Below, piece after piece: positions 1-64,000 of a DNA stretch of 64,000 bases. The translations under genes and the position numbers were made by a program. Positions within the stretch are counted from its first letter, which is position 1, and the number at the start of each line of letters is the position of its first letter. The notes beneath the pieces are model-generated. The model saw only the letters and a program-made list of their open reading frames with translations. It searched no databases and was not told the DNA's origin. Source of the stretch: Escherichia coli (GTDB taxonomy: Bacteria > Pseudomonadota > Gammaproteobacteria > Enterobacterales > Enterobacteriaceae); NCBI RefSeq assembly GCF_022846255.1, contig NZ_AP025682.1; one strand, written 5' to 3'.

Positions 1-325
1 AGGTCGCCAGCGCCAGGTTGATAAGCGCAAAGGCATAGACAATGGGTAGCAACAACCAGCCACGATTGCGAGAAGCCACAATGGTCATTACCGTACAGAT
101 CATCAAACTGACCAATGAACCAACGTTCAGCAGGCTGAGGTTTTGTCCGCTATCACCGTCGGGCAGGATGCGGGCTTCCAGAGCGATTGCGTGGCAGACC
201 AGCGCGATGACCGCAGAAATAATAGCCATGCGCCGCCAGCCGCCGTTTTTTTGCAGCAGACCGGGAACAATCAGCGCAAGACTGACGGAGTAGGCGACAA
301 GCGCGAGCAGAGCAAAAACGGGCAT
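1..325 (-). CDS. ypjD: Inner-membrane protein YpjD, N-terminal part only (gene runs off the window start); an alternative upstream ATG is at 400
   Basis: Hand translation of the minus strand from 400 downward gives MQRLEQRSPDAILLLFLIAQTVDITMPVFALLALVAYSVSLALIVPG..., hydrophobic and membrane-like; divergent from ffh as in K-12. Absent from the ORF track because it has no in-window stop. Confidence 0.7.
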   Translation of the reverse strand, partial: MPVFALLALVAYSVSLALIVPGLLQKNGGWRRMAIISAVIALVCHAIALEARILPDGDSGQNLSLLNVGSLVSLMICTVMTIVASRNRGWLLLPIVYAFALINLALAT

Positions 326-491
326 AGTAATGTCGACAGTTTGAGCAATAAGAAAGAGAAGCAGTATAGCGTCAGGTGAACGCTGCTCCAACCGTTGCAT
401 AACAACAAAGACGCCTTCATGTTATACTGCGGCAAAATACTGATGATGTGTCGCGATTGCGGCCAACCGTTTCCACCCCAGGCGAGAGACA

Positions 492-1853
492 ATGTTTGAT
501 AATTTAACCGATCGTTTGTCGCGCACGCTGCGCAATATCAGTGGCCGTGGACGCCTCACTGAAGACAACGTAAAAGATACGCTGCGCGAAGTGCGCATGG
601 CGCTGCTGGAGGCGGACGTCGCTCTGCCGGTAGTGCGTGAGTTTATCAATCGCGTAAAAGAGAAAGCGGTTGGTCATGAAGTTAATAAGAGCCTGACGCC
701 GGGGCAGGAGTTCGTCAAAATTGTCCGTAACGAACTGGTTGCGGCGATGGGCGAAGAGAACCAGACCCTGAACCTGGCTGCGCAACCGCCTGCGGTCGTG
801 CTGATGGCGGGCCTGCAAGGTGCCGGTAAAACAACCAGCGTTGGTAAACTCGGTAAGTTCCTGCGCGAGAAGCACAAGAAGAAAGTGCTGGTGGTTTCTG
901 CCGACGTCTATCGCCCGGCGGCAATCAAACAGCTTGAGACGCTGGCAGAGCAGGTGAGCGTTGATTTCTTCCCTTCTGATGTTGGTCAGAAGCCGGTAGA
1001 TATCGTTAACGCGGCGCTGAAAGAAGCCAAACTGAAATTCTACGACGTGCTGCTGGTGGATACTGCCGGTCGTCTGCACGTTGACGAAGCGATGATGGAC
1101 GAGATCAAACAAGTCCATGCGTCGATTAATCCGGTTGAAACCCTGTTTGTGGTCGATGCCATGACCGGTCAGGATGCGGCCAATACGGCAAAAGCATTCA
1201 ATGAAGCGTTACCGCTTACCGGTGTAGTGTTGACCAAAGTGGACGGCGATGCCCGCGGCGGTGCGGCGCTCTCTATTCGTCACATCACTGGCAAACCGAT
1301 CAAGTTCCTCGGTGTTGGCGAGAAAACCGAGGCGCTGGAGCCATTCCATCCGGACCGTATTGCCTCCCGTATTCTCGGCATGGGCGACGTACTGTCACTG
1401 ATCGAAGATATCGAAAGCAAGGTTGACCGCGCGCAGGCAGAGAAATTAGCCAGCAAGCTGAAAAAAGGCGACGGCTTCGATCTCAACGACTTTCTTGAGC
1501 AGCTGCGCCAGATGAAAAATATGGGCGGCATGGCTAGCCTGATGGGCAAGCTGCCGGGCATGGGGCAGATCCCGGATAACGTCAAGTCACAGATGGACGA
1601 TAAAGTGCTGGTGCGTATGGAAGCCATCATCAACTCGATGACGATGAAAGAGCGCGCTAAGCCAGAAATCATCAAAGGTTCGCGTAAGCGTCGTATCGCT
1701 GCCGGTTGCGGTATGCAGGTGCAGGACGTTAACCGTCTTCTGAAACAGTTCGACGACATGCAGCGCATGATGAAGAAAATGAAGAAGGGCGGGATGGCGA
1801 AGATGATGAGAAGCATGAAAGGGATGATGCCGCCGGGATTTCCTGGTCGCTAA
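492..1853 (+). CDS. ffh: Signal recognition particle protein Ffh (453 aa)
   Basis: ORF 492..1853; GTPase motifs GLQGAGKTT and DTAGR, Met-rich C-terminal M domain; length matches Ffh. Confidence 0.97.
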   Translation: MFDNLTDRLSRTLRNISGRGRLTEDNVKDTLREVRMALLEADVALPVVREFINRVKEKAVGHEVNKSLTPGQEFVKIVRNELVAAMGEENQTLNLAAQPPAVVLMAGLQGAGKTTSVGKLGKFLREKHKKKVLVVSADVYRPAAIKQLETLAEQVSVDFFPSDVGQKPVDIVNAALKEAKLKFYDVLLVDTAGRLHVDEAMMDEIKQVHASINPVETLFVVDAMTGQDAANTAKAFNEALPLTGVVLTKVDGDARGGAALSIRHITGKPIKFLGVGEKTEALEPFHPDRIASRILGMGDVLSLIEDIESKVDRAQAEKLASKLKKGDGFDLNDFLEQLRQMKNMGGMASLMGKLPGMGQIPDNVKSQMDDKVLVRMEAIINSMTMKERAKPEIIKGSRKRRIAAGCGMQVQDVNRLLKQFDDMQRMMKKMKKGGMAKMMRSMKGMMPPGFPGR

Positions 1854-1911
1854 ATGACCTTATGCGACAGAGTTATTAACTGCTGATTGCATTTTCTCCA
1901 GAAATCAGTAA

Positions 1912-2238
<327 letters not shown>

Positions 2239-2256
2239 TCTGTCACGGTGGTCATG

Positions 2257-2805
2257 ATGAGCAAACAACTCACCGCGCAAGCACCTGTTGATCCCATCGT
2301 TTTGGGAAAAATGGGTTCGTCTTACGGTATTCGTGGGTGGCTCAGAGTGTTTTCTTCCACCGAAGACGCCGAAAGCATTTTTGACTATCAGCCCTGGTTT
2401 ATCCAGAAGGCGGGTCAGTGGCAGCAAGTCCAACTGGAAAGCTGGAAGCACCACAATCAGGACATGATCATCAAGCTGAAAGGCGTTGACGATCGTGATG
2501 CGGCGAACCTGCTGACGAATTGTGAAATTGTCGTGGATTCATCGCAGTTGCCTCAGCTTGAAGAGGGGGACTACTACTGGAAAGACCTGATGGGCTGCCA
2601 GGTAGTAACCACTGAAGGCTACGATCTCGGTAAAGTCGTAGATATGATGGAAACCGGATCTAATGACGTTCTCGTCATTAAGGCAAACCTGAAAGATGCG
2701 TTTGGTATCAAGGAACGTCTCGTACCGTTCCTCGATGGGCAGGTTATCAAGAAAGTCGATCTCACTACTCGTTCAATCGAAGTAGATTGGGATCCTGGTT
2801 TTTAA
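2257..2805 (+). CDS. rimM: Ribosome maturation factor RimM (182 aa)
   Basis: [32 protein letters not shown]; the track ORF begins at a GTG at 2248, the ATG at 2257 gives the canonical length. Confidence 0.93.
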
Positions 2806-2835
2806 ACCACCGGATAAACGGTAAAAGACGGCGCT

Positions 2836-3603
2836 ATGTGGATTGGCATAATTAGCCTGTTTCCTGAAATGTTCCGCGCAATTACCGATTACGGGGTAAC
2901 TGGCCGGGCAGTTAAAAATGGCCTGCTGAGCATCCAGAGCTGGAGTCCTCGTGACTTCACGCATGACCGGCACCGTACCGTGGACGATCGTCCTTACGGC
3001 GGCGGACCGGGGATGTTAATGATGGTGCAACCCTTGCGGGACGCCATTCATGCAGCAAAAGCCGCGGCGGGTGAAGGCGCAAAGGTGATTTATCTGTCAC
3101 CACAGGGACGCAAGCTTGATCAAGCGGGCGTCAGCGAACTGGCAACGAATCAAAAATTGATTCTGGTGTGTGGTCGCTACGAAGGTATAGATGAGCGCGT
3201 GATCCAAACCGAAATTGACGAAGAATGGTCAATCGGCGATTACGTTCTCAGTGGTGGTGAGTTACCAGCAATGACGCTGATTGACTCCGTTTCCCGGTTT
3301 ATTCCGGGAGTACTGGGACATGAAGCCTCGGCAACGGAAGATTCCTTTGCTGAAGGATTGCTGGATTGCCCGCACTATACGCGGCCTGAGGTGTTAGAAG
3401 GGATGGAAGTTCCGCCAGTGTTACTGTCGGGCAACCATGCCGAGATACGTCGCTGGCGTTTGAAACAGTCGCTGGGCCGTACCTGGCTTAGAAGACCTGA
3501 ACTTCTGGAAAACCTGGCTCTGACTGAAGAGCAAGCAAGGTTGCTGGCGGAGTTCAAAACGGAACACGCACAACAGCAACATAAACATGATGGGATGGCG
3601 TAA
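2836..3603 (+). CDS. trmD: tRNA (guanine37-N1)-methyltransferase TrmD (255 aa)
   Basis: [13 protein letters not shown]...; position in the rpsP-rimM-trmD-rplS operon. Confidence 0.96.
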
Positions 3604-3992: not shown

Positions 3993-4022
3993 GATTTCGC
4001 TTAAGCGACATCCTGTTAAGAA

Positions 4023-4051
4023 GGGCTGGCCAATTGGCTGGCCCTTTTTTT
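4023..4051 (+). terminator. Rho-independent terminator of the rpsP-rplS operon
   Basis: GC-rich imperfect palindrome gggctggccaattggctggccc followed by a run of T. Confidence 0.6.
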
Positions 4052-4068
4052 GTCTGTTTGCTCGTGTT

Positions 4069-4551
4069 TTAAGGGGTTGTAATCACCACTGCGACGCGGC
4101 GGTTCTCGGCGCGGCCCTGGGCGGTCTTGTTACTGGCTATGGGATATTTTTTTCCTAAACCCTGAGTGGTGAGATTGCTGCGCGGAATTTGTCCACCCAT
4201 AGCCCATGCATCGGCCACGACATTCGCCCGTTTCAATGATAAGACTTCGTTGTAACTGTCTTCACCATAGTTGTCGGTGTGTCCATCCATACGGGCATGT
4301 GTTAGCCCTGTCGAGGCCAATTTGGCTGCCATGGTTTGGATTTGTTGCTGGCTTTCCGGGAGCAATTTGTAGTCATTTTTTGCAAACAGAATGGCATCTG
4401 ATAAGCCCAGCGACCAGTCGCCGGCGGATTCAGTAAATCCATAAGATTGCATAGCGGCGACTTGCTCAGGAGTAAACTTTCCCTGAGGGGACTGGCAGCC
4501 AGTAAGTATTAGCGAGGTGAAAATCAGGGGTGCTAGCAGGTGCTTTATCAT
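4069..4551 (-). CDS. yfiB: OmpA-family outer-membrane lipoprotein YfiB (160 aa)
   Basis: Lipobox LTGC near the N-terminus; OmpA-like C-terminal motif NRRVAVVI; synteny with dgcN and yfiR. Confidence 0.92.
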   Translation of the reverse strand: MIKHLLAPLIFTSLILTGCQSPQGKFTPEQVAAMQSYGFTESAGDWSLGLSDAILFAKNDYKLLPESQQQIQTMAAKLASTGLTHARMDGHTDNYGEDSYNEVLSLKRANVVADAWAMGGQIPRSNLTTQGLGKKYPIASNKTAQGRAENRRVAVVITTP

Positions 4552-49748: not shown

Positions 49749-49954
49749 TTACCGTTAAATCATTTTAAAAATCAGTAAGTTGTATCGAGTTTGTATGCTT
49801 TACTGTCATTAACTTACTGTATGTTGATCCAGTGTATTTAACCTTGATAAACTCAGTCCAGTAACACAAAGCCGCAACACATTGCATTTTGTCCCGTAGA
49901 AAAGACTTGTATGTGTGTGCTTGTTTTCTGCGCCTACGCAGATAAGGATTGAGA

Positions 49955-51352
49955 ATGCCGCGCACTGTAACACATAATCCGGATAGCCCCAATAATGACG
50001 ATGTTTTAGCCGCATCTGAAAAATGGGACGCCTGTAAACCCCCCTATACCAGCGCACACATGAAAATCTGTGTTGCTGCCGCCAAAATCATCCTCGCTGC
50101 TTCCGGCGTGGCTCGCCGTTCCAAATACGAAAAAGAGAACTATCTCCGTATCGATTTCAGCAAAGCCGGTAAGGTTACATTTTACGCCGAGTTTCCAAAA
50201 AAGATGGGCCTCAAAGGTAAAAAGCTCGGCGAGTGGCCGGAGCTCGCTATCCAGCTGGCGCGCGAAAAAGCGCTAGGTATGGCTGACGGTGGCCTGCGGG
50301 CAGAGTCCGTACATGCAGCGCTGGAAATGTACCGGGATGACCTCAAAGCCAAAGTCGCCCGGCAGAAGCTGAGCCCGGACAGTTTCACAACCTACGGGGT
50401 GCGTATCGACCGGATTAAAGCAACGTTCGGCGAGCGCGAGGTGTTCAGCGACGTAACATACAATCGGCTGGTGGAAGTGCTGGACGAGTGGATCGCTACT
50501 CGCTCGAACAATAACGCCCTGGAGTTGTTTGCCGAGCTCCGTCGGTTCTGGAAGTTCTGCGCACCTACTCTTTGCAACGGCCGCAATGTTGCCGCCAGTC
50601 TGCCAGATGATTATGTTTCCTCCCGCGTACAGAAACCTACCCCCACACGGCTTTTTACCGATATTGAATCAATCGCCCGACTCTGGCTCAATGTTGCTGC
50701 CTGCACCTCTGTACACCAGAAGAATGCTGTTCGCTTCATGATCATCACTGGTGTTCGTCCGATTAATGTCCATAACCTGCGCTGGGACTACGTTCACGAG
50801 GAGGCTGGTGAAATTGTTTATCCGGAAGGGGTTATCGGCATGCGAGGGGCTATGAAAACACAAAAGGCTTTCCGCCTGCCGATAACCCCTGAGATCCGGC
50901 GGATTATCGACGAGCAGAAAGCCTGGCGTGATTCAGTTCCTGAGTGCAACAGGGATTATGTATTTTTGCAGCCACGTGATCCAATGCAGCCATTTTCAAA
51001 ACGATCACTGGATAAGCTGGTGAAAACATACAGCCCGGACGGGGCTGTAAAAGGAATAAAACATGATGGGACTGTTAAAGGGAAAGACGGTGCATTTAAT
51101 ACGATGTGCCGTAAATTCCTTAAGAGCAATGTTATTGCCTTGATGAAGGAAAGAGGCTATTCCCGCTCAGACCGAAGGGAAATCAGCCTCCTTTGCCTTC
51201 ACCACTCCAGCAAGTCAGATGACCCGATGGCAGAACATTACGACTTTTCTGATGAGATTTTACAGGAAGAGATTGCGTTGAAGCGCGAAGCTTTCGAGGC
51301 TCACGAGCGGAGCATACTTGCGCAGGTGGCATTGCTACGGCGGCGAGGTTAA
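49955..51352 (+). CDS. Phage-type tyrosine integrase (start uncertain: TTG 49949, ATG 49955 with AAGGA RBS, or ATG 50060)
   Basis: C-terminal catalytic-domain pattern ending ...LHHSSKSDDPMAEHYDF with the tyrosine nucleophile; arm-binding-like N-terminus; position at the element boundary. Confidence 0.85.
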   Translation: MPRTVTHNPDSPNNDDVLAASEKWDACKPPYTSAHMKICVAAAKIILAASGVARRSKYEKENYLRIDFSKAGKVTFYAEFPKKMGLKGKKLGEWPELAIQLAREKALGMADGGLRAESVHAALEMYRDDLKAKVARQKLSPDSFTTYGVRIDRIKATFGEREVFSDVTYNRLVEVLDEWIATRSNNNALELFAELRRFWKFCAPTLCNGRNVAASLPDDYVSSRVQKPTPTRLFTDIESIARLWLNVAACTSVHQKNAVRFMIITGVRPINVHNLRWDYVHEEAGEIVYPEGVIGMRGAMKTQKAFRLPITPEIRRIIDEQKAWRDSVPECNRDYVFLQPRDPMQPFSKRSLDKLVKTYSPDGAVKGIKHDGTVKGKDGAFNTMCRKFLKSNVIALMKERGYSRSDRREISLLCLHHSSKSDDPMAEHYDFSDEILQEEIALKREAFEAHERSILAQVALLRRRG

Positions 51353-53002: not shown

Positions 53003-53920
53003 TTATAATAGTGCTGTTACTATTGCATCTTTAAAAATATTTTCTTCTTCATTTATTAAAGGTGATGACAGATGAATAATTACTTCTTTTCCTGTCAATA
53101 CTATTTGCTCGACTTGAAATCCTGCGTTGTGTAGTCTTTGGCGTAACTTTTCTAGTGCTGATTTTGATATACTAAATCCTTCACTCCTTATAGTATAACT
53201 GGCAACTCCATTTTTAATAATATCTACAGAGTTGTCAATTTCCTGCTGCGAGTAATTTTTCGGTGAGTCGAAAAATCTGGATTTTGTCGTTGCTGTTGCC
53301 CTAAGAGATATCAATAATGATTTGATATCTTTAATCTCAGATGCCAGATACTCAGTTTCTGATACTTCTTTCTGGTCTAGTTGTGCAACTTTGAAAGTGC
53401 CAAAATGTTTGAGGAATGTTGTGTATTCAGGATCAGTTACTGACTTTAAATATGTTTCTTTTATCTTGCTCGCAAGTCTTTCTTTGAATAAATTGATTGA
53501 TTGGTATCTTAAATCCGAAGGGTACTCTAAATGTTCAATTGATGAAATGTCAAAGCTATAAGGAGTGCGCTCGTCCTTAATAATTACGGTCGGTTTGTCA
53601 AATGCGAGACGCATTCCTAATTCAAACATTACATTAGCGTTTCGAGCACTTATATCGCAAACAACTATGGGGTTTTCATAAAGATTTTGAACAATTCGTT
53701 TTTGTATTACTGCAACATCATCATCTGAACTTACCAAATTTGCCTTGAATCCGGCATCATTTGATGCTTCACAAATAATGTCATGAACATTTCTCCAATG
53801 TCCAGTGGGATAACCTTCTATGTCCGCAATTGGCATAATAATGCCGCATATATGAGGTGGCATATTTTTGTTGTCTTTTACATCATCTTGGTTTATTTCT
53901 TTCGTTTGTTGCTTAGCCAT
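53003..53920 (-). CDS. Hypothetical cargo protein (305 aa) with a Rossmann-like N-terminal domain of NDT/TIR-fold appearance and an unknown C-terminal domain
   Basis: N-terminal pattern ICGIIMPIAD ... IVVCDISARNANVMFELGMRLAFDKPTVII (beta-strand, then conserved Glu in an FELG context, as in nucleoside 2-deoxyribosyltransferase/TIR-like folds); gene is conspicuously AT-rich; own terminator. Confidence 0.5.
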   Translation of the reverse strand: MAKQQTKEINQDDVKDNKNMPPHICGIIMPIADIEGYPTGHWRNVHDIICEASNDAGFKANLVSSDDDVAVIQKRIVQNLYENPIVVCDISARNANVMFELGMRLAFDKPTVIIKDERTPYSFDISSIEHLEYPSDLRYQSINLFKERLASKIKETYLKSVTDPEYTTFLKHFGTFKVAQLDQKEVSETEYLASEIKDIKSLLISLRATATTKSRFFDSPKNYSQQEIDNSVDIIKNGVASYTIRSEGFSISKSALEKLRQRLHNAGFQVEQIVLTGKEVIIHLSSPLINEEENIFKDAIVTALL

Positions 53921-54649: not shown

Positions 54650-55411
54650 TTACGAGGAAGCGTTAGCTATTTGAGCTTGTGTAAATTCGAAACCAGAATT
54701 TTGTAACCGTTGCACTAGACGAGGAACTGTTTCACGTACATGGTCGTTGAAATTCAGATACAAAATCCCGTTAGCATCAGAAGGCTGTTCTAGGTGCTGT
54801 TTCTGAAGGATTGCTACATTGCTGCGCCCTAAGGACGAAAGAAGCATACCCATCTCGAGTACAACGTTCTGTCTTGCGCGGGGTTGGATTTCTGCTTCAC
54901 CGGCGCGCTTTGAGTATCCCATATCATCAGGTGTCAAAAGAACAATCCCGAAACGGGTAGCAGTTTGTCCTTGCCCAATTTCACGTTCAAGCTCTTCAAT
55001 AATGGTGAGTCCAGTCCCTCCCGTATTCTGCAAAATGAAATGGTCTGGTAATCCAAGTTTATGAAGGATTAGCTCAAGTTGTTCCTTTGCAGTATGGTCA
55101 TGGCCGTGAACAATGAATATCTTTTTGGGAAGCTCAGATGGCTGTTCTACGGCTAGTGGTGTTGCCGTGGGGGGCGTTCCTAAATGGGACATTATTGCAG
55201 TTTCAACATTGGGACGTTCTTGAGGGTTACCTTGAAACTGAATGGTCCGGGTGGTGTAAAGGTTAACAATTACGCCATTCGTTAAACGATAGCAGTCATA
55301 AGTCTCACGCTGTTCGTGGGAAAAATTGGTGAACCCACACTCCCTCAAAAAGTCAGGAAAAGATTCTCTCGGGTATGGATAGGTGATCGGCATTTCAGTT
55401 AGTTCCTGCAT
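54650..55411 (-). CDS. TIR-like nucleotide-binding domain protein (253 aa), Cap12-like TIR-like family with an unknown about 80-aa N-terminal domain
   Basis: KIFIVHGHDHTAKEQLELILHKLGL ... FGIVLLTPDDMGY ... RARQNVVLEMGMLLSSLGRSNVAIL, matching my recollection of the 'predicted nucleotide-binding protein containing TIR-like domain' family (PF10137); AAGGA RBS; own terminator. Confidence 0.65.
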   Translation of the reverse strand: MQELTEMPITYPYPRESFPDFLRECGFTNFSHEQRETYDCYRLTNGVIVNLYTTRTIQFQGNPQERPNVETAIMSHLGTPPTATPLAVEQPSELPKKIFIVHGHDHTAKEQLELILHKLGLPDHFILQNTGGTGLTIIEELEREIGQGQTATRFGIVLLTPDDMGYSKRAGEAEIQPRARQNVVLEMGMLLSSLGRSNVAILQKQHLEQPSDANGILYLNFNDHVRETVPRLVQRLQNSGFEFTQAQIANASS

Positions 55412-57580: not shown

Positions 57581-57607
57581 AAAAAGCCGCCAAAATGGCG
57601 GCTTTTT
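57581..57607 (-). terminator. Rho-independent terminator after the SIR2-like gene
   Basis: Minus-strand aaaagccgcc atttt ggcggctttt followed by a U-rich tract. Confidence 0.65.
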
Positions 57608-57627
57608 ATAACCGAAGTTAAGAATGC

Positions 57628-59130
57628 TTAATATGATAAATAATCATACAAGCATAAAAGTCGCCTGTATTGGGTATCAATTTTATGCCCTGGTTTTGTT
57701 AAATAATCTCGTAGTTGTTTCAATGAAATAGTATCGTTTAGTACGCAATACATAATCGTGTTAGCAACTTTATACTCTTTCGTTTCTTTTAGTATTTCAT
57801 CAATAGACACAGCCTCACTCTTACATGTTTTAATTCGAGAAAGGTTACCAATGATTTTATCTAGCTGCCGTTTTCTGTATGTCTCGGTATTTTCTAGTTC
57901 AGGGCAGATAGAACTAAAAGCGTATATTGGAAAGTGTTCGCTATTAGCTATGGTTTGCTTATTCAGTAATGCGATAAGCTGAGAGTTTGCTTCGTCAACT
58001 ATTTTAAAATAGTTCTGTATCATTTCAGATTTTGTTTGATAAACATATTGTACGGTTCTTTCTGAACCAACAGCAATGACCATTTCATCATTGCGAAGTT
58101 CATCTAAATTTTCTGTAATTTTAACCTTTATCTCACCACCACTTTTGATGGTACTCCAAACTTTTTGAACCTTTCTTATGTCCATTGCGGATACTGGCAA
58201 AACTAGTCCCGAGATGGCATCATATACAGCTTTGTAATTGTTTGTTTTTATTTTGTTTATTCTTATGATAGACATGCCTTCTATATCTATGTCATGCTCC
58301 GTAATTTCAGTTGACATGCTGTCTTTTTCGTATTCAACCAAAAGAAAATTATCTTTTATCCTTTTTGCAAGTTCGGTATTTAAGTCAACGTATGAGAATA
58401 TGGTTTTTAATAAGTACTTAATGTTTTTATCGCTAATACTATACCCTATAAATATGATAGGGTTGTGTATGAATATTGAGAGTAATTGAGCGCGAATTAA
58501 CTCATATTTATTGTCGAAGTTTGCGTAGTCTTCACCTGTGATAATTATGTTGTTAGGATCACTAACACAGCCATGTATTTTGTAAACTGAACCGTATGGG
58601 TTACTTAAAAGAATGTTATTACCAATCAGTGGGTTAAATTCGAAGATGTTCTCTACGAGTTGGTCGTAGTTTGTTGTAATGATGGAGCCTATGTTTTTTC
58701 TTGTTTTTATTAAGCTGTTTATTTCCTCCATCATTGACTCTTTTATCTTTAGGTCTTTAAGTATTGAAGTTAAATAAATTTTGAATCGACTTAGTTTTTT
58801 TCCTTTTTTCATGTGCTCATAGAAAACATCATTGATGTCTTTGAACTTACCGTTACGATCTTCTGCCAGCTTTTTATTAAAAATATCTTCAAGTTTTGTA
58901 GCTAAGATATCATATCGATAGTCGTCACCTTCTAGGCTTTCAGCTTTCAAATCGTAGTAAAACTCAGCATTACCGGTTAGTTCCATTGCGACACTCAAAA
59001 GAAGACCATCCCAGCTAAATGAGTTTTCTAGATACCGTAGGCTAAATCCTGTTCCAATGAATAGAACAGGGTGGTTTTTATAGTGACTTACAAACTCTTG
59101 GATTTCCATACCGATTCTCAAAGTTGACAC
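57628..59130 (-). CDS. SIR2-like (sirtuin-fold, SIR2_2-type) protein, 500 aa, with an about 250-aa C-terminal domain of unknown type
   Basis: Motifs PVLFIGTGFS, SIITTNYD, YKIHGC and IIFIGYSISD, in the order seen in defence-associated SIR2 domains; GTG start at 59130 with AGAGG RBS (first ATG at 59109); roughly 30% GC by hand count versus about 50% in flanking polymerase; own terminator. Confidence 0.75.
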   Translation of the reverse strand: MSTLRIGMEIQEFVSHYKNHPVLFIGTGFSLRYLENSFSWDGLLLSVAMELTGNAEFYYDLKAESLEGDDYRYDILATKLEDIFNKKLAEDRNGKFKDINDVFYEHMKKGKKLSRFKIYLTSILKDLKIKESMMEEINSLIKTRKNIGSIITTNYDQLVENIFEFNPLIGNNILLSNPYGSVYKIHGCVSDPNNIIITGEDYANFDNKYELIRAQLLSIFIHNPIIFIGYSISDKNIKYLLKTIFSYVDLNTELAKRIKDNFLLVEYEKDSMSTEITEHDIDIEGMSIIRINKIKTNNYKAVYDAISGLVLPVSAMDIRKVQKVWSTIKSGGEIKVKITENLDELRNDEMVIAVGSERTVQYVYQTKSEMIQNYFKIVDEANSQLIALLNKQTIANSEHFPIYAFSSICPELENTETYRKRQLDKIIGNLSRIKTCKSEAVSIDEILKETKEYKVANTIMYCVLNDTISLKQLRDYLTKPGHKIDTQYRRLLCLYDYLSY

Positions 59131-61088: not shown

Positions 61089-61991
61089 TTAACCCTCCAG
61101 TGCTTTTTCAGCCAGGGTGATTACTTCAGCGAGATTTTCATCCGTTACTTCACCAAGTTTCCTGGCTCCCTGTTTTTCCAGAATTGCAATAGCTTCTGCC
61201 CGGTAACCCCCTTTTGCTAACTGGAGGATCAACCCTTCAGCTTGTTTGCGTAGTGCCGCGAAATCAATTGTATGGTCATCTTTGGCGTCATTATTCTGGC
61301 TGGAATTTGCTGCGTCTCTGCGTGCAAATTCTTCCTGCAGCTGAAGGTACTCAACACGGTTGATCTCGATATGGCCTTTTTTCAGCATCTCGTTCAACTT
61401 GCGTAAGGTGTGGAGTTCACTGGCTGCTGTGCCGGATACATTTTTGACGTAAAACGGCCCCGTGCGTTCTCCATCTTTGTTACTGGCCTTTTTCGGCTTA
61501 ACTTCATCACGCCCATCCGCAGGTGCATCAAGTAGCTGCTCGGCAAAAGCACGTCGCTCGCCGATGGTTGGCAGGTCGTCCCAGAACTTAAGGATGTTAC
61601 GGGACAGGTCCAGGAGAGCAGGTTTAAGCAGCGCCCTGGCTCGTTTGACGCCCTGCAATGCGCTGTCGAGAGCATCAATCTGAACTACTCGTTTATCGCC
61701 TTCAGCATCACGGTAGGCAACAGCACGTTGCAGCATGTCTTCTGTGATAGGGGTGGCTACCGGGTAGAAACCCGCCAGTGCGATAACGTCGCTGAACTCC
61801 AGATCATCCAGTGTCATTGCCGCTGACATATTTTCAGTTTCAGTTGCTGTATCCCGACATTCCTGCACTCGTGAAATCGTGTCAGGATGCATAACAATGC
61901 CTGATGCCATTGTGCGGATAAGACGTTCAAGCAGCGCATTATGTTGTGCCAGAAGTTGATTATTAAGTTCTAGACTGGTTTCTAAACTCAT
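61089..61991 (-). CDS. Hypothetical phage protein (300 aa)
   Basis: ORF in operon upstream of the DUF2800 gene; no motif recognised. Confidence 0.5.
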
Positions 61992-62170
61992 ACTGTGGTC
62001 CTCGCTACAAGGAGAATGAAAGTGATGATCAGACCGAGCGCAGTGGCAACGGCCAGACCGGTCATCAAATCGAAGTTTTTACGGCGATAACGGAGAACAT
62101 CGCGCCCCGTCAGTCGATGGATGTGTTCAGGTTTCATCGGTTGTATTCCTTTTTTCATATCGGGGAGCAC
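61988..62170 (-). CDS. Small hypothetical membrane protein (60 aa)
   Basis: One predicted TM helix (LAVATALGLIITFILLV); stop overlaps the next gene. Confidence 0.4.
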   Translation of the reverse strand: MLPDMKKGIQPMKPEHIHRLTGRDVLRYRRKNFDLMTGLAVATALGLIITFILLVARTTV

Positions 62171-62253
62171 GCTGTTGCGAGTGCGCTTTCAGACATAAAA
62201 AAGCCCGTCACTTGAGGCGGGCAAAGACTACACACAGCAATTACATGGATGAT

Positions 62254-62448
62254 TCAGTTGGTATTGTGCGTACGTGGTACCACAAGGTTGAAGCGGACAC
62301 GCCAGTGCGTTGCAATGGTATGCAGGAAAGCACCACATCCAGGGCAGTGCTCATAACATTCGTTGATTTGGTATCGTTTTGGCTTTGGTGTCAGAAGCTG
62401 TGTTTGGCAAGCAGGGCATTCACCTTTGAGCGGTTTATACGTTTTCAC
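62254..62448 (-). CDS. Small Cys-rich phage protein (64 aa), possible zinc finger
   Basis: CPACQ ... CYEHCPGCG; first gene of the leftward operon. Confidence 0.45.
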   Translation of the reverse strand: MKTYKPLKGECPACQTQLLTPKPKRYQINECYEHCPGCGAFLHTIATHWRVRFNLVVPRTHNTN

Positions 62449-62717
62449 GCCGTTTCCTCATTCAGTTCACTTTGGTGGTTCGGCGGCTTCGACTTGTATC
62501 AGTAGACAGTGCTTCGCCGCACCCCAAAGGGAACTTACTGACCCGTATTGCCGACATCCTGTCCCGCCACGGTCCCGACGCATGGTTTAGAGTCGCGCCG
62601 TTCGACTTGTGGTTTAAATATCTGTGTATAGATATCTTAACTTTACGCGTATAGTTAAGACTTCTAAACTCACAAAGTCAAGTGTTGAGGTTAAGAAAAG
62701 TGAACTTTTTCGGATAG

Positions 62718-62746
62718 GTAAAGAAAAGCCCGCTTAGGAAGCGGGC
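62718..62746 (-). terminator. Terminator after the CI-like repressor gene
   Basis: Minus-strand gcccgcuu ccu aagcgggc followed by UUUUCUUU. Confidence 0.6.
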
Positions 62747-62770
62747 ATGTGGTATAGAGTGAATTTACGC

Positions 62771-63463
62771 TCAGAGCAGAACGGAGTACCAAAATACTTG
62801 GCCTATAATCCTGATTTTATTAGCCTCTTGATTAAAATACTCTTCGTCTGCGTATTCATCCCTATTGAAAGAGCGTATCCGGAGTCCGCTTGGGAGACGG
62901 TACAATAGTTTGACACGAAGTAATCCGTCTTGGTCTATGGCGTACATTTGACCATCTTTTACACCTGTTTTTGATGTATCTATGCCGACGACAGCGCCAT
63001 CCGGTAATACCGGTTCCATGCTGTTGCCGTGGATGCTGACACAAGCCGCACAATTTACGTCAACACCTGCTTTGCGCAACGTTGAACGGGCGAATCTTAA
63101 CTTACATCCCATTCGATCTATATCAACATAAGTACCATTACCGGCAGATAGCTCAATTTCCTGATAGAACGGTATTTCCACTTCATCATCCTCTAATGGC
63201 GTTGATGAGTCCCATACAGAAAACCCTCCCTCAACTTGTGCATTAGAATGTATTTCTTTGGTATCGCTTGTTTTGCCTGAAAGTAGCCACTCTGGAGAAA
63301 CGTTCAATGCTTCGGCCAGATTTATAAGATTTTTCCCGTTAGGTGTGGTGTTTCCGGATTCCCATTGTGAAATCGTGGCTTTAGTTAGACCAATACGTTT
63401 AGCAAGCGCATCCTGCGTTAGGTGGACATTGCGACGAGCCTCGCGAATACGATCATTAATCAT
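62771..63463 (-). CDS. CI-like repressor (HTH_XRE plus S24 LexA-like peptidase domain, 230 aa)
   Basis: N-terminal HTH LTQDALAKRIGLTKATISQWESG; C-terminal S24-like region with GNSMEP (Ser nucleophile) and a downstream Lys; GAGG RBS. Confidence 0.8.
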   Translation of the reverse strand: MINDRIREARRNVHLTQDALAKRIGLTKATISQWESGNTTPNGKNLINLAEALNVSPEWLLSGKTSDTKEIHSNAQVEGGFSVWDSSTPLEDDEVEIPFYQEIELSAGNGTYVDIDRMGCKLRFARSTLRKAGVDVNCAACVSIHGNSMEPVLPDGAVVGIDTSKTGVKDGQMYAIDQDGLLRVKLLYRLPSGLRIRSFNRDEYADEEYFNQEANKIRIIGQVFWYSVLL

Positions 63464-63576
63464 GGTTTTACCCTCATATAGTTTAGTTAGCTTAACTTAA
63501 TCAGGGTATCGCTTTCTTGACTTGTTGGTTTAGTTTTCTTAACCTCATATAACCATATATTTCCTGGGTAACGGTT
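63464..63576. promoter_or_regulatory. Divergent promoter/operator region of the CI-like / Cro-like switch
   Basis: 113-bp AT-rich intergenic region between divergent repressor genes, with near-palindromic elements such as agttagcttaact. Confidence 0.5.
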
Positions 63577-63762
63577 ATGAAAAAAGCAGAAGCAATTGAG
63601 CTTGCAGGAAGTAAAGCGAAACTAGCGAGACTATTGAAGGTTTCCAAAGGAGCCGTATCTCAATGGGGGGAGGAAATCCCAGAGTTAAGAGCTCTTCAAC
63701 TTGAAAAGATTTTGGAGCAAAAAAATGTAGTCAAACAAAAAGGCTTAACCCATGTCCGATAG
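63577..63762 (+). CDS. Cro/YdaS-like small HTH protein (61 aa)
   Basis: LAGSKAKLARLLKVSKGAVSQW HTH; divergent from the CI-like gene. Confidence 0.7.
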   Translation: MKKAEAIELAGSKAKLARLLKVSKGAVSQWGEEIPELRALQLEKILEQKNVVKQKGLTHVR

Positions 63763-64000
63763 CAAACCATGGGGAGCTACGCCTGATGAGTGGTTTCATT
63801 TTGACCTGGTATTGGGGAGAACTGATCATCTTCTGCCAGTTGTATGTAACCCCGGTGCGACCATATCCCCTGATAGTAAACTGAAAGCGTTGGGTAAGAC
63901 GCCGAGTCGCTATAACCGGGACCGCCAGGTCACCGGTATTGCTCAATGGACCGGGCATGTTGTTACTGAGCATGATTTTGCCCGCTGGTCGAATGAACCG
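63752..64000 (+). CDS. Hypothetical phage protein, N-terminal fragment (continues beyond the window); possibly replication/primase-related
   Basis: ATG at 63752 opens MSDSKPWGATPDEWFHFDLVLGRTDHLLPVV... with no stop before the window end; overlaps the Cro-like stop. Confidence 0.45.
   Translation, partial: MSDSKPWGATPDEWFHFDLVLGRTDHLLPVVCNPGATISPDSKLKALGKTPSRYNRDRQVTGIAQWTGHVVTEHDFARWSNEP

What the first reader, a model, noticed from the sequence alone, without database searches (positions are those of the whole stretch)
62449..63576. Lysogeny switch: S24-peptidase CI-like repressor with its own terminator, divergent Cro-like gene, and a 320-bp control region before the replication operon
The CI-like protein has an XRE HTH plus a LexA-like self-cleavage domain, implying RecA/SOS-inducible derepression. 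Its transcript appears to end at a hairpin (62718..62746), so the replication operon carrying the cargo genes must start from a separate promoter in 62449..62717. That region contains an 8-bp-arm inverted repeat tcttaact-N10-agttaaga that could be an operator. Whether the cargo genes are expressed in the lysogen depends on these signals.
Basis: partly seen in the sequence, partly recalled or inferred. Interest (0 to 1): 0.4.

Follow-up and report, generated by a model that had tools for sequence, protein, structure and literature searches.

The report
Ordinary P22/lambda-type prophage immunity switch
This is a standard repressor/anti-repressor "lysogeny switch" of an E. coli prophage, built like those of phages lambda and P22, so it is ordinary; but the first terminator of its leftward operon copies the processed form of the host small RNA RprA.

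Summary
The features present are a 230-aa CI repressor (HTH + S24 peptidase; 62771-63463, -), a strong terminator behind it (62718-62746), a divergent P22_Cro-type gene (63577-63762), and 322 bp before the next ORF.

The 322 bp contain a leftward early promoter (PL). Its -35 is TTGACT at 62676-62681, and it is built like PR (63517-63545).

The operator unit is a 16-bp pseudo-palindrome, GTTWAG-N4-CTWAAC. Its three exact copies in the 64-kb window all lie in the two control regions.

Two kinds of evidence support this:
- In relatives of the same immunity type, half-sites and the -35 do not vary while the spacers do.
- In relatives with another repressor, exactly 62613-63736 is swapped, and the replacement brings its own promoter and palindromes.

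PL is therefore predicted to be CI-repressed. Two intrinsic terminators lie in its operon. The SIR2 cargo gene looks like a self-contained AT-rich insert with its own terminator.

Verdict: a new member of a known kind, low interest.

Side finding: the first PL terminator (62197-62242) copies the 47-nt processed form of host sRNA RprA. The same module occurs in more than 120 viral contigs, none annotated.

The parts
62771..63463 (-). cI-like repressor, 230 aa: N-terminal HTH resembling P22 C2, C-terminal S24 self-cleavage domain (A107-G108, S148, K185)
   Evidence: Pfam HTH_3 and Peptidase_S24; PDB 1adr E 5e-14; alignment with lambda CI and LexA; PHROG phrog_4 repressor E 2.4e-58
62718..62746 (-). 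Intrinsic terminator of the cI transcript (stem 62728-62746, T tract 62718-62727); counterpart of lambda t-imm
   Evidence: Terminator scan. In 12 sequences of the same immunity type the stem varies in 3 of 19 columns, all next to the loop, and the T tract in 0 of 10
62690..62705 (.). OL3, weaker operator upstream of the PL -35 (GTTCAC-TTTT-CTTAAC on the - strand; 2 mismatches to consensus)
   Evidence: 2 of 12 half-site columns vary
62676..62681 (-). PL -35 hexamer TTGACT
   Evidence: invariant in 12 sequences; same hexamer and layout as PR
62654..62669 (.). OL1, exact operator GTTTAG-AAGT-CTTAAC (- strand). It fills the PL spacer and overlaps the -10 (TTAACT/TAACTA, 62652-62658).
   Evidence: 0 of 12 half-site columns vary, 1 of 4 N4 columns varies
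62626..62641 (.). OL2, operator GTTAAG-ATAT-CTATAC (- strand, 1 mismatch), at about +4 to +19 of the PL transcript.
   Evidence: 0 of 12 half-site columns vary, 2 of 4 N4 columns vary
62613..63736 (.). Immunity module as defined by natural swaps: OL/PL, terminator, cI, OR/PR, cro
   Evidence: Homology with strain 97-3250 and 8 other loci that carry another repressor and cro breaks at 62612/62613 and resumes at 63737
62449..62612 (-). Leader of the PL transcript (G+C rich), shared between immunity types. It contains GTCGAACGGCGCGACTCTAAACC, a possible diverged boxA/nut-like element
   Evidence: Fold z-score is only -2.1; no Rfam match
62254..62448 (-). First ORF of the PL operon: 64-aa CxxC...CxxC zinc-ribbon protein (GTG start, GAGGAA Shine-Dalgarno), not annotated in RefSeq; sits in a swappable cassette slot
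62197..62242 (-). First intrinsic terminator of the PL operon (positional counterpart of lambda tL1), which copies processed RprA. Conserved single-stranded stretch 62219-62242, hairpin 62203-62222, U run 62197-62202
   Evidence: Rfam RprA 49.7 bits, below the gathering score of 70; 84.8% identity to the last 46 nt of host rprA; folds
63481..63496 (.). OR3, exact operator GTTTAG-TTAG-CTTAAC, nearest the cI start
63506..63521 (.). OR2, weak operator GTATCG-CTTT-CTTGAC, overlapping the PR -35
   Evidence: half-sites invariant and N4 variable in 8 variants
63528..63543 (.). OR1, exact operator GTTTAG-TTTT-CTTAAC, in the PR spacer and overlapping the -10
63517..63545 (+). PR: TTGACT - 17 nt - TAACCT, driving cro and the VapE-type primase gene
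   Evidence: invariant hexamers
63577..63762 (+). cro-like gene, 61 aa; its end overlaps the start of the VapE primase gene (ATG at 63752)
   Evidence: Pfam P22_Cro E 2.3e-16; annotation in relatives

Best explanation
The region is the immunity module of an intact-looking temperate phage integrated next to yfhL. It is organised like the immC/imm regions of P22 and lambda.

Proposed mechanism (inferred unless marked shown):
- CI dimers bind 16-bp pseudo-palindromes, GTTWAG-N4-CTWAAC. This is the same 6+4+6 geometry as P22 C2 operators.
- There are three sites on each side of the cI gene.
- The site that fills the -35/-10 spacer of PR (OR1) and of PL (OL1) blocks RNA polymerase. In the lysogen this silences both early operons: cro-primase rightward, and the leader, small ORF, recombination, SIR2, DNA polymerase and helicase genes leftward.
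- cI is transcribed leftward from a promoter I could not locate. Its transcript stops at the 62718-62746 terminator, just before OL/PL.
- DNA damage would activate RecA, which would trigger CI self-cleavage at A107-G108 by the S148/K185 dyad. That frees PL and PR. Cro, binding the same operators, would then lock in lytic growth.
- The PL transcript starts near 62645 and runs through a leader of about 200 nt and a 64-aa zinc-ribbon ORF. It then meets an intrinsic terminator (62197-62222) and later a second one after the SIR2 gene (57581-57602). Full expression of the replication genes therefore probably needs antitermination.

Shown here in silico: protein domains and motifs, terminator, promoter and operator anatomy, their conservation, and the module boundaries.
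For: Proteins:
- HTH_3 + Peptidase_S24, and P22_Cro.
- 50%-identity match of the CI N-terminal domain to the P22 C2 N-terminal domain.
- G-x-S-M and K columns invariant with lambda CI and LexA.
- P22 repressor binds 18-bp sites, contacting positions 2-7 and 12-17 with 4 uncontacted central bp (PMC4267663). The repeats found here have the same geometry.

Operators:
- 7 hits against 0.22 expected in 64 kb; all 3 exact copies lie in the two control regions.
- PL and PR share the layout CTTGACT...GTTTAGnnnnCTTAAC.

Footprint in relatives of the same immunity type:
- PL side, 12 sequences: 30 of 75 unassigned columns vary, against 0 of 30 in OL1 and OL2 half-sites plus the -35; 3 of 12 N4 columns vary.
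- OR side, 8 variants: 36 of 62 unassigned columns vary, against 1 of 36 half-site columns and 0 of 6 in the -10.

Natural swap experiment:
- Phages with a different repressor and cro replace exactly 62613-63736.
- In that other module, its own palindrome ATACMA-N6-TTGTAT occurs only in its two control regions: 5 sites against 0.69 matches expected in 6 kb.
- Relatives were collected through the neighbouring 300-aa protein, independently of the switch. At least five different immunity modules each place a sigma-70-like promoter (up to 11 of 12 matches) within about 60 nt upstream of the start of the common leader.

Terminators.
Against: - No experimental data were available: no binding, transcript ends or induction.
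- The PL -10 is poor (TTAACT or TAACTA, 8 of 12 overall), and the generic promoter scan did not call PL or PR.
- The cI maintenance promoter could not be located.
- Operator centre-to-centre spacings on the PL side (36 and 28 bp) differ from the 22-25 bp on the OR side, so lambda-like cooperative binding is not assured.
- The S24 domain found no solved relative by sequence. MAFFT did not place the Ala-Gly in the same column as in lambda CI and LexA.
- No cII/cIII-type establishment genes and no N homologue were seen.
- The window ends at 64000, so the rest of the rightward operon was seen only in relatives.
Confidence: 0.8

Rival explanations
1. The 8-N10-8 inverted repeat is a single 26-bp operator for one regulator (CI, Cro or a third protein), rather than parts of two operators.
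For: The arms are perfect and invariant in relatives.
Against: No 26-bp repeat exists at OR, where the same repressor must act. The 16-bp unit occurs three times exactly. The outer half-sites GTTTAG (62664-62669) and CTATAC (62626-62631), which this model does not need, are also invariant. A CI with a P22 C2-like HTH is expected to read 6+4+6 sites.
Confidence: 0.06
2. There is no PL. The leftward genes are expressed by read-through from the cI promoter, and the hairpin acts as an attenuator.
For: The PL -10 is weak, and the generic scan called no promoter here.
Against: The terminator is strong and conserved. The -35 TTGACT is invariant. Every alternative immunity module brings a promoter-like site to the same position, some with 11 of 12 matches. 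Read-through would express lytic genes in the lysogen.
Confidence: 0.03
3. The prophage is a decayed remnant, and the switch no longer controls anything.
For: Only part of the prophage is in the window. No induction data.
Against: All ORFs from int to the primase gene are intact. The 3-kb switch region is 98-100% identical in 17 E. coli genomes and partly present in 152. Phages deposited as isolates (vB_EcoM-606R2 and relatives, 36-43 kb) share the leftward backbone at 99%.
Confidence: 0.08
4. The main product of the first PL transcription unit (62197-62645) is not the 64-aa protein. It is a small RNA cut from the unit's 3' end that imitates processed RprA. This adds to the best explanation rather than excluding it.
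For: RefSeq does not annotate the ORF. Only 3 protein clusters match it in 5.8 billion. Substitutions show no excess of synonymous changes (11 non-synonymous, 6 synonymous). The slot upstream of the module holds unrelated cassettes, while the module itself stays.
Against: All cysteines and the reading frame are kept in a 75%-identical Enterobacter homologue. Other cassettes in the slot match phage protein families. No RNA data.
Confidence: 0.3

Closest known systems
Phage P22 immC region (c2 repressor, cro, OL/PL, OR/PR/PRM)
   Same: The repressor N-terminal domain is the best solved-structure match (E 5e-14). Operators have 6-bp half-sites around 4 central bp, with a related half-site (TTAAG / CTTAA type; the P22 sequence is from my memory). 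Cro belongs to the P22_Cro family. Operator clusters lie on both sides of the repressor gene. The C-terminal domain is an S24 self-cleavage domain.
   Different: The half-site sequence is GTTWAG, so a different specificity is expected. No gene 24 (N) homologue follows PL, and no c1/c3 genes were seen. Cro is followed directly by a VapE-type primase. The early left operon encodes a family A DNA polymerase (PolA type), DUF2800, DUF2815 and SNF2 proteins instead of lambdoid recombination genes.
Phage lambda immunity region (PL/OL, N, tL1; cI-rex-t-imm; OR/PRM/PR; cro)
   Same: Same order and orientation: the repressor is transcribed toward PL and stopped by a terminator just before OL. Operators are tripartite. 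The immunity region is exchanged as a cassette between relatives, as with imm434 and imm21. The first terminator lies shortly after the first PL gene.
   Different: No rex genes and no N. The window's leader has only a doubtful boxA, whereas relatives carry a canonical CGCTCTTTAACAA. Operator spacing on the left side is irregular.
RprA small RNA and its 47-nt processed form (Rfam RF00034)
   Same: Window 62197-62242 is 84.8% identical to the last 46 nt of E. coli rprA. Of these, 25 consecutive nt match the family consensus, and the small hairpin, CUUU linker, terminator and U tail are laid out the same way. RprAproc is the last 47 nt (PMC9262595).
   Different: It scores below the Rfam gathering score. 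There is no RprA 5' stem-loop, no rpoS-pairing stretch beyond CUGA...AAUUGCUG, and no promoter of its own. It lies at the 3' end of a phage mRNA.
StxS, a regulatory sRNA produced by early termination of the Shiga-toxin phage late (PR') transcript (PMC7547250)
   Same: A phage transcript ending at a terminator that antitermination must overcome could double as an Hfq-type sRNA.
   Different: StxS comes from the late promoter and is made in the lysogen. Here the promoter is predicted to be repressed in the lysogen, and the RNA copies a host sRNA.

Membership tests
CI/LexA-type self-cleaving phage repressor (HTH + MEROPS S24) | N-terminal Cro/C1-type helix-turn-helix domain | tested here: met
   Pfam HTH_3 66.3 bits (cut-off 23), Phage_CI_repr 30.8 bits; P22 C2 and 434 repressor N-terminal domains in the PDB
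CI/LexA-type self-cleaving phage repressor (HTH + MEROPS S24) | C-terminal S24 domain with a Ser-Lys catalytic dyad | tested here: met
   Peptidase_S24 62.9 bits (cut-off 23.3) over residues 104-224.
CI/LexA-type self-cleaving phage repressor (HTH + MEROPS S24) | Ala-Gly (or Cys-Gly) scissile bond in the linker, about 35-40 residues before the catalytic Ser | tested here: inconclusive
   A107-G108 (ELSA|GNG) lies 41 residues before S148 and is kept in the 83%-identical homologue. MAFFT did not put it in the same column as the lambda CI and LexA Ala-Gly
CI/LexA-type self-cleaving phage repressor (HTH + MEROPS S24) | RecA-stimulated self-cleavage and SOS induction | not testable with these tools
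   Needs a cleavage assay or mitomycin C induction
Lambdoid-type immunity region (OL/PL - cI - OR/PR - cro) | Divergent repressor and cro genes with repeated operators between them that overlap PR | tested here: met
   Three 16-bp sites at 63481-63543, one in the PR spacer; conserved in relatives
Lambdoid-type immunity region (OL/PL - cI - OR/PR - cro) | A second cluster of the same operators overlapping a leftward promoter beyond the repressor gene | tested here: met
   62626-62705 with the -35 at 62676-62681
Lambdoid-type immunity region (OL/PL - cI - OR/PR - cro) | The module is exchanged as a unit between related phages, and operators change together with the repressor | tested here: met
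   Breakpoints 62612/62613 and 63736/63737. The other module carries its own palindromes at both ends. At least 5 module types were seen
Lambdoid-type immunity region (OL/PL - cI - OR/PR - cro) | N protein plus nut sites (boxA/boxB) giving antitermination of early transcripts | tested here: inconclusive
   No N-like protein. A canonical boxA CGCTCTTTAACAA is present in relatives' leaders. The window has only CGCGACTCTAAACC at the matching place
Lambdoid-type immunity region (OL/PL - cI - OR/PR - cro) | cII gene directly after cro (establishment of lysogeny) | tested here: not met
   The cro stop overlaps the start of the VapE primase gene (63752)
Cro (Pfam P22_Cro, PF14549) | Profile match above the curated cut-off | tested here: met
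   59.7 bits against a cut-off of 30.2
RprA sRNA (Rfam RF00034) | Covariance-model score at or above the gathering score (70 bits) | tested here: not met
   49.7 bits in the window; 52-66 bits in other phage contexts
RprA sRNA (Rfam RF00034) | 3' domain equal to processed RprA: small hairpin, CUUU, terminator, U tail | tested here: met
   25-nt identity to the consensus; 84.8% over 46 nt to E. coli rprA; predicted fold
RprA sRNA (Rfam RF00034) | 5' stem-loop and a promoter of its own | tested here: not met
   The 5' half aligns with low posterior probability and lies inside the 64-aa ORF; no promoter-like site upstream
RprA sRNA (Rfam RF00034) | Hfq binding and regulation of RprA targets | not testable with these tools
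   Needs co-immunoprecipitation and reporter assays

The most novel reading that the evidence does not exclude
The first terminator of the PL operon (62197-62242) is a phage-borne mimic of processed RprA. On this reading, when CI is inactivated, or on infection, the terminated or RNase E-cut 3' end of the first PL transcript yields an Hfq-binding RNA of about 46 nt carrying the RprAproc sequence. That RNA would act on the host RprAproc regulon.

The module is portable:
- Its 18-nt core occurs in more than 120 IMG/VR contigs, with more than 50 different upstream sequences.
- It sits behind unrelated small genes.
- It sits directly after tRNA 3' fragments, where a host tRNA promoter could drive it in a lysogen.
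- It occurs in virulent N4-like Erwinia phages.
- It is annotated nowhere I looked, and I found no paper mentioning it.
Probability: 0.35. Interest if true: 0.7.

Novelty: new member of a known kind. Interest (0 to 1): 0.25.

Why it matters
For the switch itself, the gain is practical. It gives exact operator, promoter and module coordinates for a prophage family present in about 150 of 5426 complete E. coli genomes, many of them from Shiga-toxin-producing or bovine lineages. That family carries candidate defence genes (PDC-S25 SIR2, PDC-S35 TIR-like). These coordinates allow reporter and footprint experiments, and prediction of which relatives are homoimmune.

The analysis also shows that the cargo is unlikely to be driven by the early promoter in the lysogen.

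The side finding could matter more. If phages widely carry a copy of processed RprA, that would be a case of a virus copying a core host sRNA. It would also give a handle on the still unexplained activity of RprAproc.

Tried and rejected
- Pairwise BLASTP of CI against LexA was uninformative.
- A phmmer search of the S24 domain against the PDB gave only spurious repeat-protein hits. I relied on Pfam and a multiple alignment instead.
- Rfam found nothing in the leader of the window or of the boxA-type relative.
- The leader's fold is only marginally better than shuffles (z = -2.1).
- The two differences between the window and L032 in the conserved 43-nt leader piece do not fall on one predicted pair, so there is no covariation support.
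- A maintenance promoter for cI could not be assigned. All - strand candidates in 63464-63583 are weak.
- Codon-position analysis of the 64-aa ORF was inconclusive.
- The simple scan found no convincing independent promoter for the SIR2 gene. By eye there is only a weak TTGGAA-17-TTTTAT.
- Literature searches returned nothing for 'RprA-like', for the module's sequence, or for the related isolated phages.
- I searched for targets of the module inside the window. The only hit was one 12-nt complement at 53128-53139, about 0.07 expected by chance, and I did not pursue it.
- I considered whether the module is an att-site remnant of integration into rprA. I rejected this for the window, because the module lies mid-operon, 12 kb from the integrase.
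Full report
CONTEXT. The window is E. coli chromosome. Rfam finds the pheA leader, an rRNA operon, the rseC antisense RNA, rncO and ohsC. From about 49.9 kb to beyond the window end lies a prophage. It starts with an integrase (49949-51352) next to yfhL. A long - strand operon follows: SNF2 helicase, VRR-NUC, a TIR-like gene, a family A DNA polymerase (PolA type), a SIR2-like gene, DUF2815, DUF2800, a 300-aa protein and a 49-aa membrane protein. The finding sits at the head of that operon. The 3 kb around it is 98-100% identical over at least 80% of its length in 17 complete E. coli genomes and partly present in 152 of 5426. The backbone to its left is 99% identical to three deposited phages of 36-43 kb.

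OBSERVATION.
- The 230-aa ORF at 62771-63463 (-) has HTH_3 (E 2.4e-18) and Peptidase_S24 (E 2.8e-17) domains.
- Its N-terminal 69 residues match the P22 C2 repressor DNA-binding domain (E 5e-14), and the 434 repressor more weakly.
- Aligned with two other repressors of this phage family, lambda CI and LexA, the columns G146, S148, M149 and K185 are invariant. They coincide with the catalytic Ser and Lys of lambda CI and LexA. A candidate scissile bond, A107-G108, lies 41 residues before the Ser.
- The hairpin is a good intrinsic terminator on the - strand: 8-bp stem with 6 G-C pairs at 62746-62728, followed by TTTTCTTT. It begins 24 nt after the stop codon.
- The 61-aa ORF at 63577-63762 (+) is a P22_Cro family protein.
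- The repeat tcttaact-N10-agttaaga is at 62635-62660.

WHAT THE CONTROL REGION IS. Read on the - strand, 62706-62626 is GTTCACTTTTCTTAAC-CTCAACAC-TTGACT-TTGTGA-GTTTAGAAGTCTTAAC-TATACGCGTAAA-GTTAAGATATCTATAC. The cI-cro intergenic region on the + strand has the same construction: CTTGACT TGTTG GTTTAGTTTTCTTAAC CT. So there are two promoters with the same -35 (TTGACT). Each has a 16-bp pseudo-palindrome, GTTWAG-N4-CTWAAC, filling the spacer and overlapping the -10.

In the whole 64-kb window this pattern has three exact copies, and all three are in the two control regions. With up to one mismatch there are 7 hits against 0.22 expected, and 4 of the 7 are in these regions. Weaker third sites lie upstream of the PL -35 (62690-62705) and over the PR -35 (63506-63521).

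The geometry, 6-bp contacted half-sites around 4 central bp, is that described for the P22 repressor: 18-bp sites, contacts at positions 2-7 and 12-17 (PMC4267663). This fits the homology of the DNA-binding domain.

Its left arm is the inner half-site of OL2 (62626-62641) and its right arm is the inner half-site of OL1 (62654-62669).

TEST 1, FOOTPRINTING AGAINST RELATIVES. Some were nearly identical; others had an immunity module only 76% identical.
- On the PL side (12 sequences), 30 of 75 unassigned columns vary. None of the 24 OL1 and OL2 half-site columns varies, and none of the 6 -35 columns. Of the 12 N4 columns, 3 vary.
- On the OR side (8 variants), 36 of 62 unassigned columns vary, against 1 of 36 half-site columns and 0 of 6 in the -10. 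The weak middle site keeps its half-sites while its N4 changes.
- The terminator stem and T tract are also kept.

TEST 2, NATURAL MODULE SWAPS. Strain 97-3250 and eight other loci carry a different repressor (annotated as LexA family) and a different cro. Their homology to the window is 99.8% up to 62612, then absent, then resumes at 63737. So the immunity module is 62613-63736, and the PL/OL segment belongs to it.

In that other module a different palindrome, ATACMA-N6-TTGTAT, occurs at five sites against 0.69 matches expected in 6 kb. Three lie next to its leftward promoter (TTTACA-17-TATCTT) and two lie between its repressor and cro genes.

Using the neighbouring 300-aa protein to collect relatives independently of the switch, I found at least five different immunity-type segments. 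Each places a sigma-70-like promoter, up to TTGACA-17-TATAAA, within about 60 nt upstream of the start of a common leader. It also implies that the promoter is under repressor control.

THE LEADER AND THE REST OF THE OPERON.
- The PL transcript should start near 62645. The stretch 62449-62612 is not part of the immunity module, because phages of other immunity types share it.
- It has no Rfam match and only a marginal folding signal.
- Relatives have one of two leader types. One carries a canonical boxA (CGCTCTTTAACAA) about 20-30 nt after the promoter. The window type has CGCGACTCTAAACC followed by a similar GAAC-GCG-GAC block at the matching place. A 43-nt piece of it is conserved in a third immunity context that has a textbook promoter. 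I read this as a possible nut-like site, with low confidence.
- The first ORF (62254-62448, GTG start, good Shine-Dalgarno) encodes a 64-aa zinc-ribbon protein that RefSeq does not annotate. It has only three homologous clusters in 5.8 billion proteins. All keep the cysteines, but the substitution pattern does not show purifying selection.
- In relatives the same slot holds unrelated small genes.
- Right after it comes an intrinsic terminator (62197-62222). A second strong one (57581-57602) follows the SIR2 gene.
- The SIR2 gene (PADLOC PDC-S25) has 32-36% G+C, against 47-57% around it. Close relatives carry a different gene at that position. It therefore looks like a self-contained insert.
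PL should be off in the lysogen. After induction, transcription must pass two terminators. Expression in the lysogen, if any, more likely comes from local signals. I could see only a weak candidate for these.

COMPARISON AND NOVELTY. In function and layout this is the P22/lambda immunity design: the repressor gene is transcribed toward PL and terminated before OL, there are two tripartite operator clusters, a divergent cro, a self-cleaving repressor, and cassette-like exchange between relatives. It differs in five ways: operator sequence; irregular operator spacing on the left side; absence of N, cII and rex homologues; cro being followed directly by a VapE primase; and the replication module it controls. 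I rate it a new member of a known kind. For a specialist it is unsurprising.

SIDE FINDING. The first PL terminator is not an ordinary terminator.
- Rfam reports a sub-threshold RprA match (49.7 bits, gathering score 70). Its 3' half is identical to the family consensus over 25 nt: AAUUGCUGUGUGUAGUCUUUGCCCG.
- Window 62197-62242 is 84.8% identical to the last 46 nt of E. coli rprA. That is the span of the 47-nt RNase E-processed form, RprAproc, which exists in vivo and has regulatory activity of its own (PMC9262595; PMC6202311).
- The exact 24-mer occurs in 63 IMG/VR contigs.
- It sits behind unrelated small ORFs, directly after tRNA 3' fragments (ARAGORN calls no whole tRNA at those positions), and in virulent N4-like Erwinia phages.
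- All 28 distinct versions fold the same way: a small hairpin, CUUU, a terminator of variable sequence, and a U run.
- In relatives collected without reference to the module, the 24 nt carry 0-1 changes even where the neighbouring protein is only 71-77% identical and the flanks have diverged.
- Nothing is annotated at these places, and I found no paper describing it.
- This is consistent with a portable, phage-borne copy of processed RprA that would be released when PL fires. No RNA data support it yet. 'Just an efficient terminator' remains possible, although a terminator does not need the conserved single-stranded part.

LIMITS. Everything here is inference from sequence. The cI maintenance promoter, the antitermination mechanism, the reality of the 64-aa protein and any function of the RprA-like module remain open.

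Noticed in passing
window 62197-62242 (- strand): The terminator after the first PL gene copies the 47-nt processed form of host sRNA RprA (25 nt identical to the Rfam consensus; 84.8% over 46 nt to E. coli rprA). It scores below the Rfam gathering score and is not annotated.
   Followed up: partly
L004-L143 (IMG/VR contigs), e.g. L012:1811-1834, L024:9760-9783, L057:1354-1377, L063:5870-5893, L070:9277-9294: The same RprA-like module occurs in more than 120 viral contigs with more than 50 different upstream sequences. Some copies lie about 10 nt after a tRNA 3' fragment, where a host tRNA promoter might drive them after integration. It also occurs in N4-like Erwinia phages (Ea9-2, Frozen, Rexella, Gutmeister).
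   Followed up: partly
window 62254-62448 (- strand): A 64-aa CxxC...CxxC zinc-ribbon ORF, not annotated in RefSeq, sits in a cassette slot that holds unrelated small genes in relatives (69-aa, 68-aa, 58-aa zinc-ribbon, 117-aa and 175-aa proteins).
   Followed up: partly
L014:5799-5811; L056:5862-5874; also L003: Relatives carry a canonical rrn/nut-type boxA (CGCTCTTTAACAA) 20-30 nt after their PL, followed by a conserved leader of about 245 nt. The window has a different leader with only a doubtful boxA (CGCGACTCTAAACC, about 62586-62599).
   Followed up: partly
window 57581-57602 (- strand) and 57628-59130: A strong intrinsic terminator (GCCGCC-ATTTT-GGCGGC-TTTTT) lies between the SIR2-like gene and the DNA polymerase gene. 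The SIR2 gene (PADLOC PDC-S25, E 4e-158) has 32-36% G+C, and close relatives carry another gene in its place.
   Followed up: partly
window 54650-55411 and 53003-53920 (- strand): Two further candidate defence genes lie inside the replication operon: a PDC-S35 TIR-like protein (E 1e-108) and an AT-rich 305-aa protein with a weak TIR-effector match.
   Followed up: no
window 57617-57632: An operator-like site (GTTAAGAATGCTTAAT, 1 mismatch) lies over the SIR2 stop codon, 5 kb from OL. It could be chance or a distant CI site.
   Followed up: no
window 53128-53139 (- strand): A 12-nt perfect complement to the conserved single-stranded stretch of the RprA-like module (AAAGACTACACA) lies inside the mRNA of the 305-aa TIR-like gene. 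About 0.07 such matches are expected by chance.
   Followed up: no
window 61988-62137 (- strand): A conserved 49-aa protein (phrog_11981) with an Arg-rich N-terminus and one transmembrane helix is the first gene after the RprA-like terminator in all relatives. Its function is unknown.
   Followed up: no
L016:3298-3402 and 4001-4132: Matches to the sRNA family STnc100 (one above its gathering score) lie next to a tRNA-Met and an RprA-like module in an unrelated viral contig.
   Followed up: no
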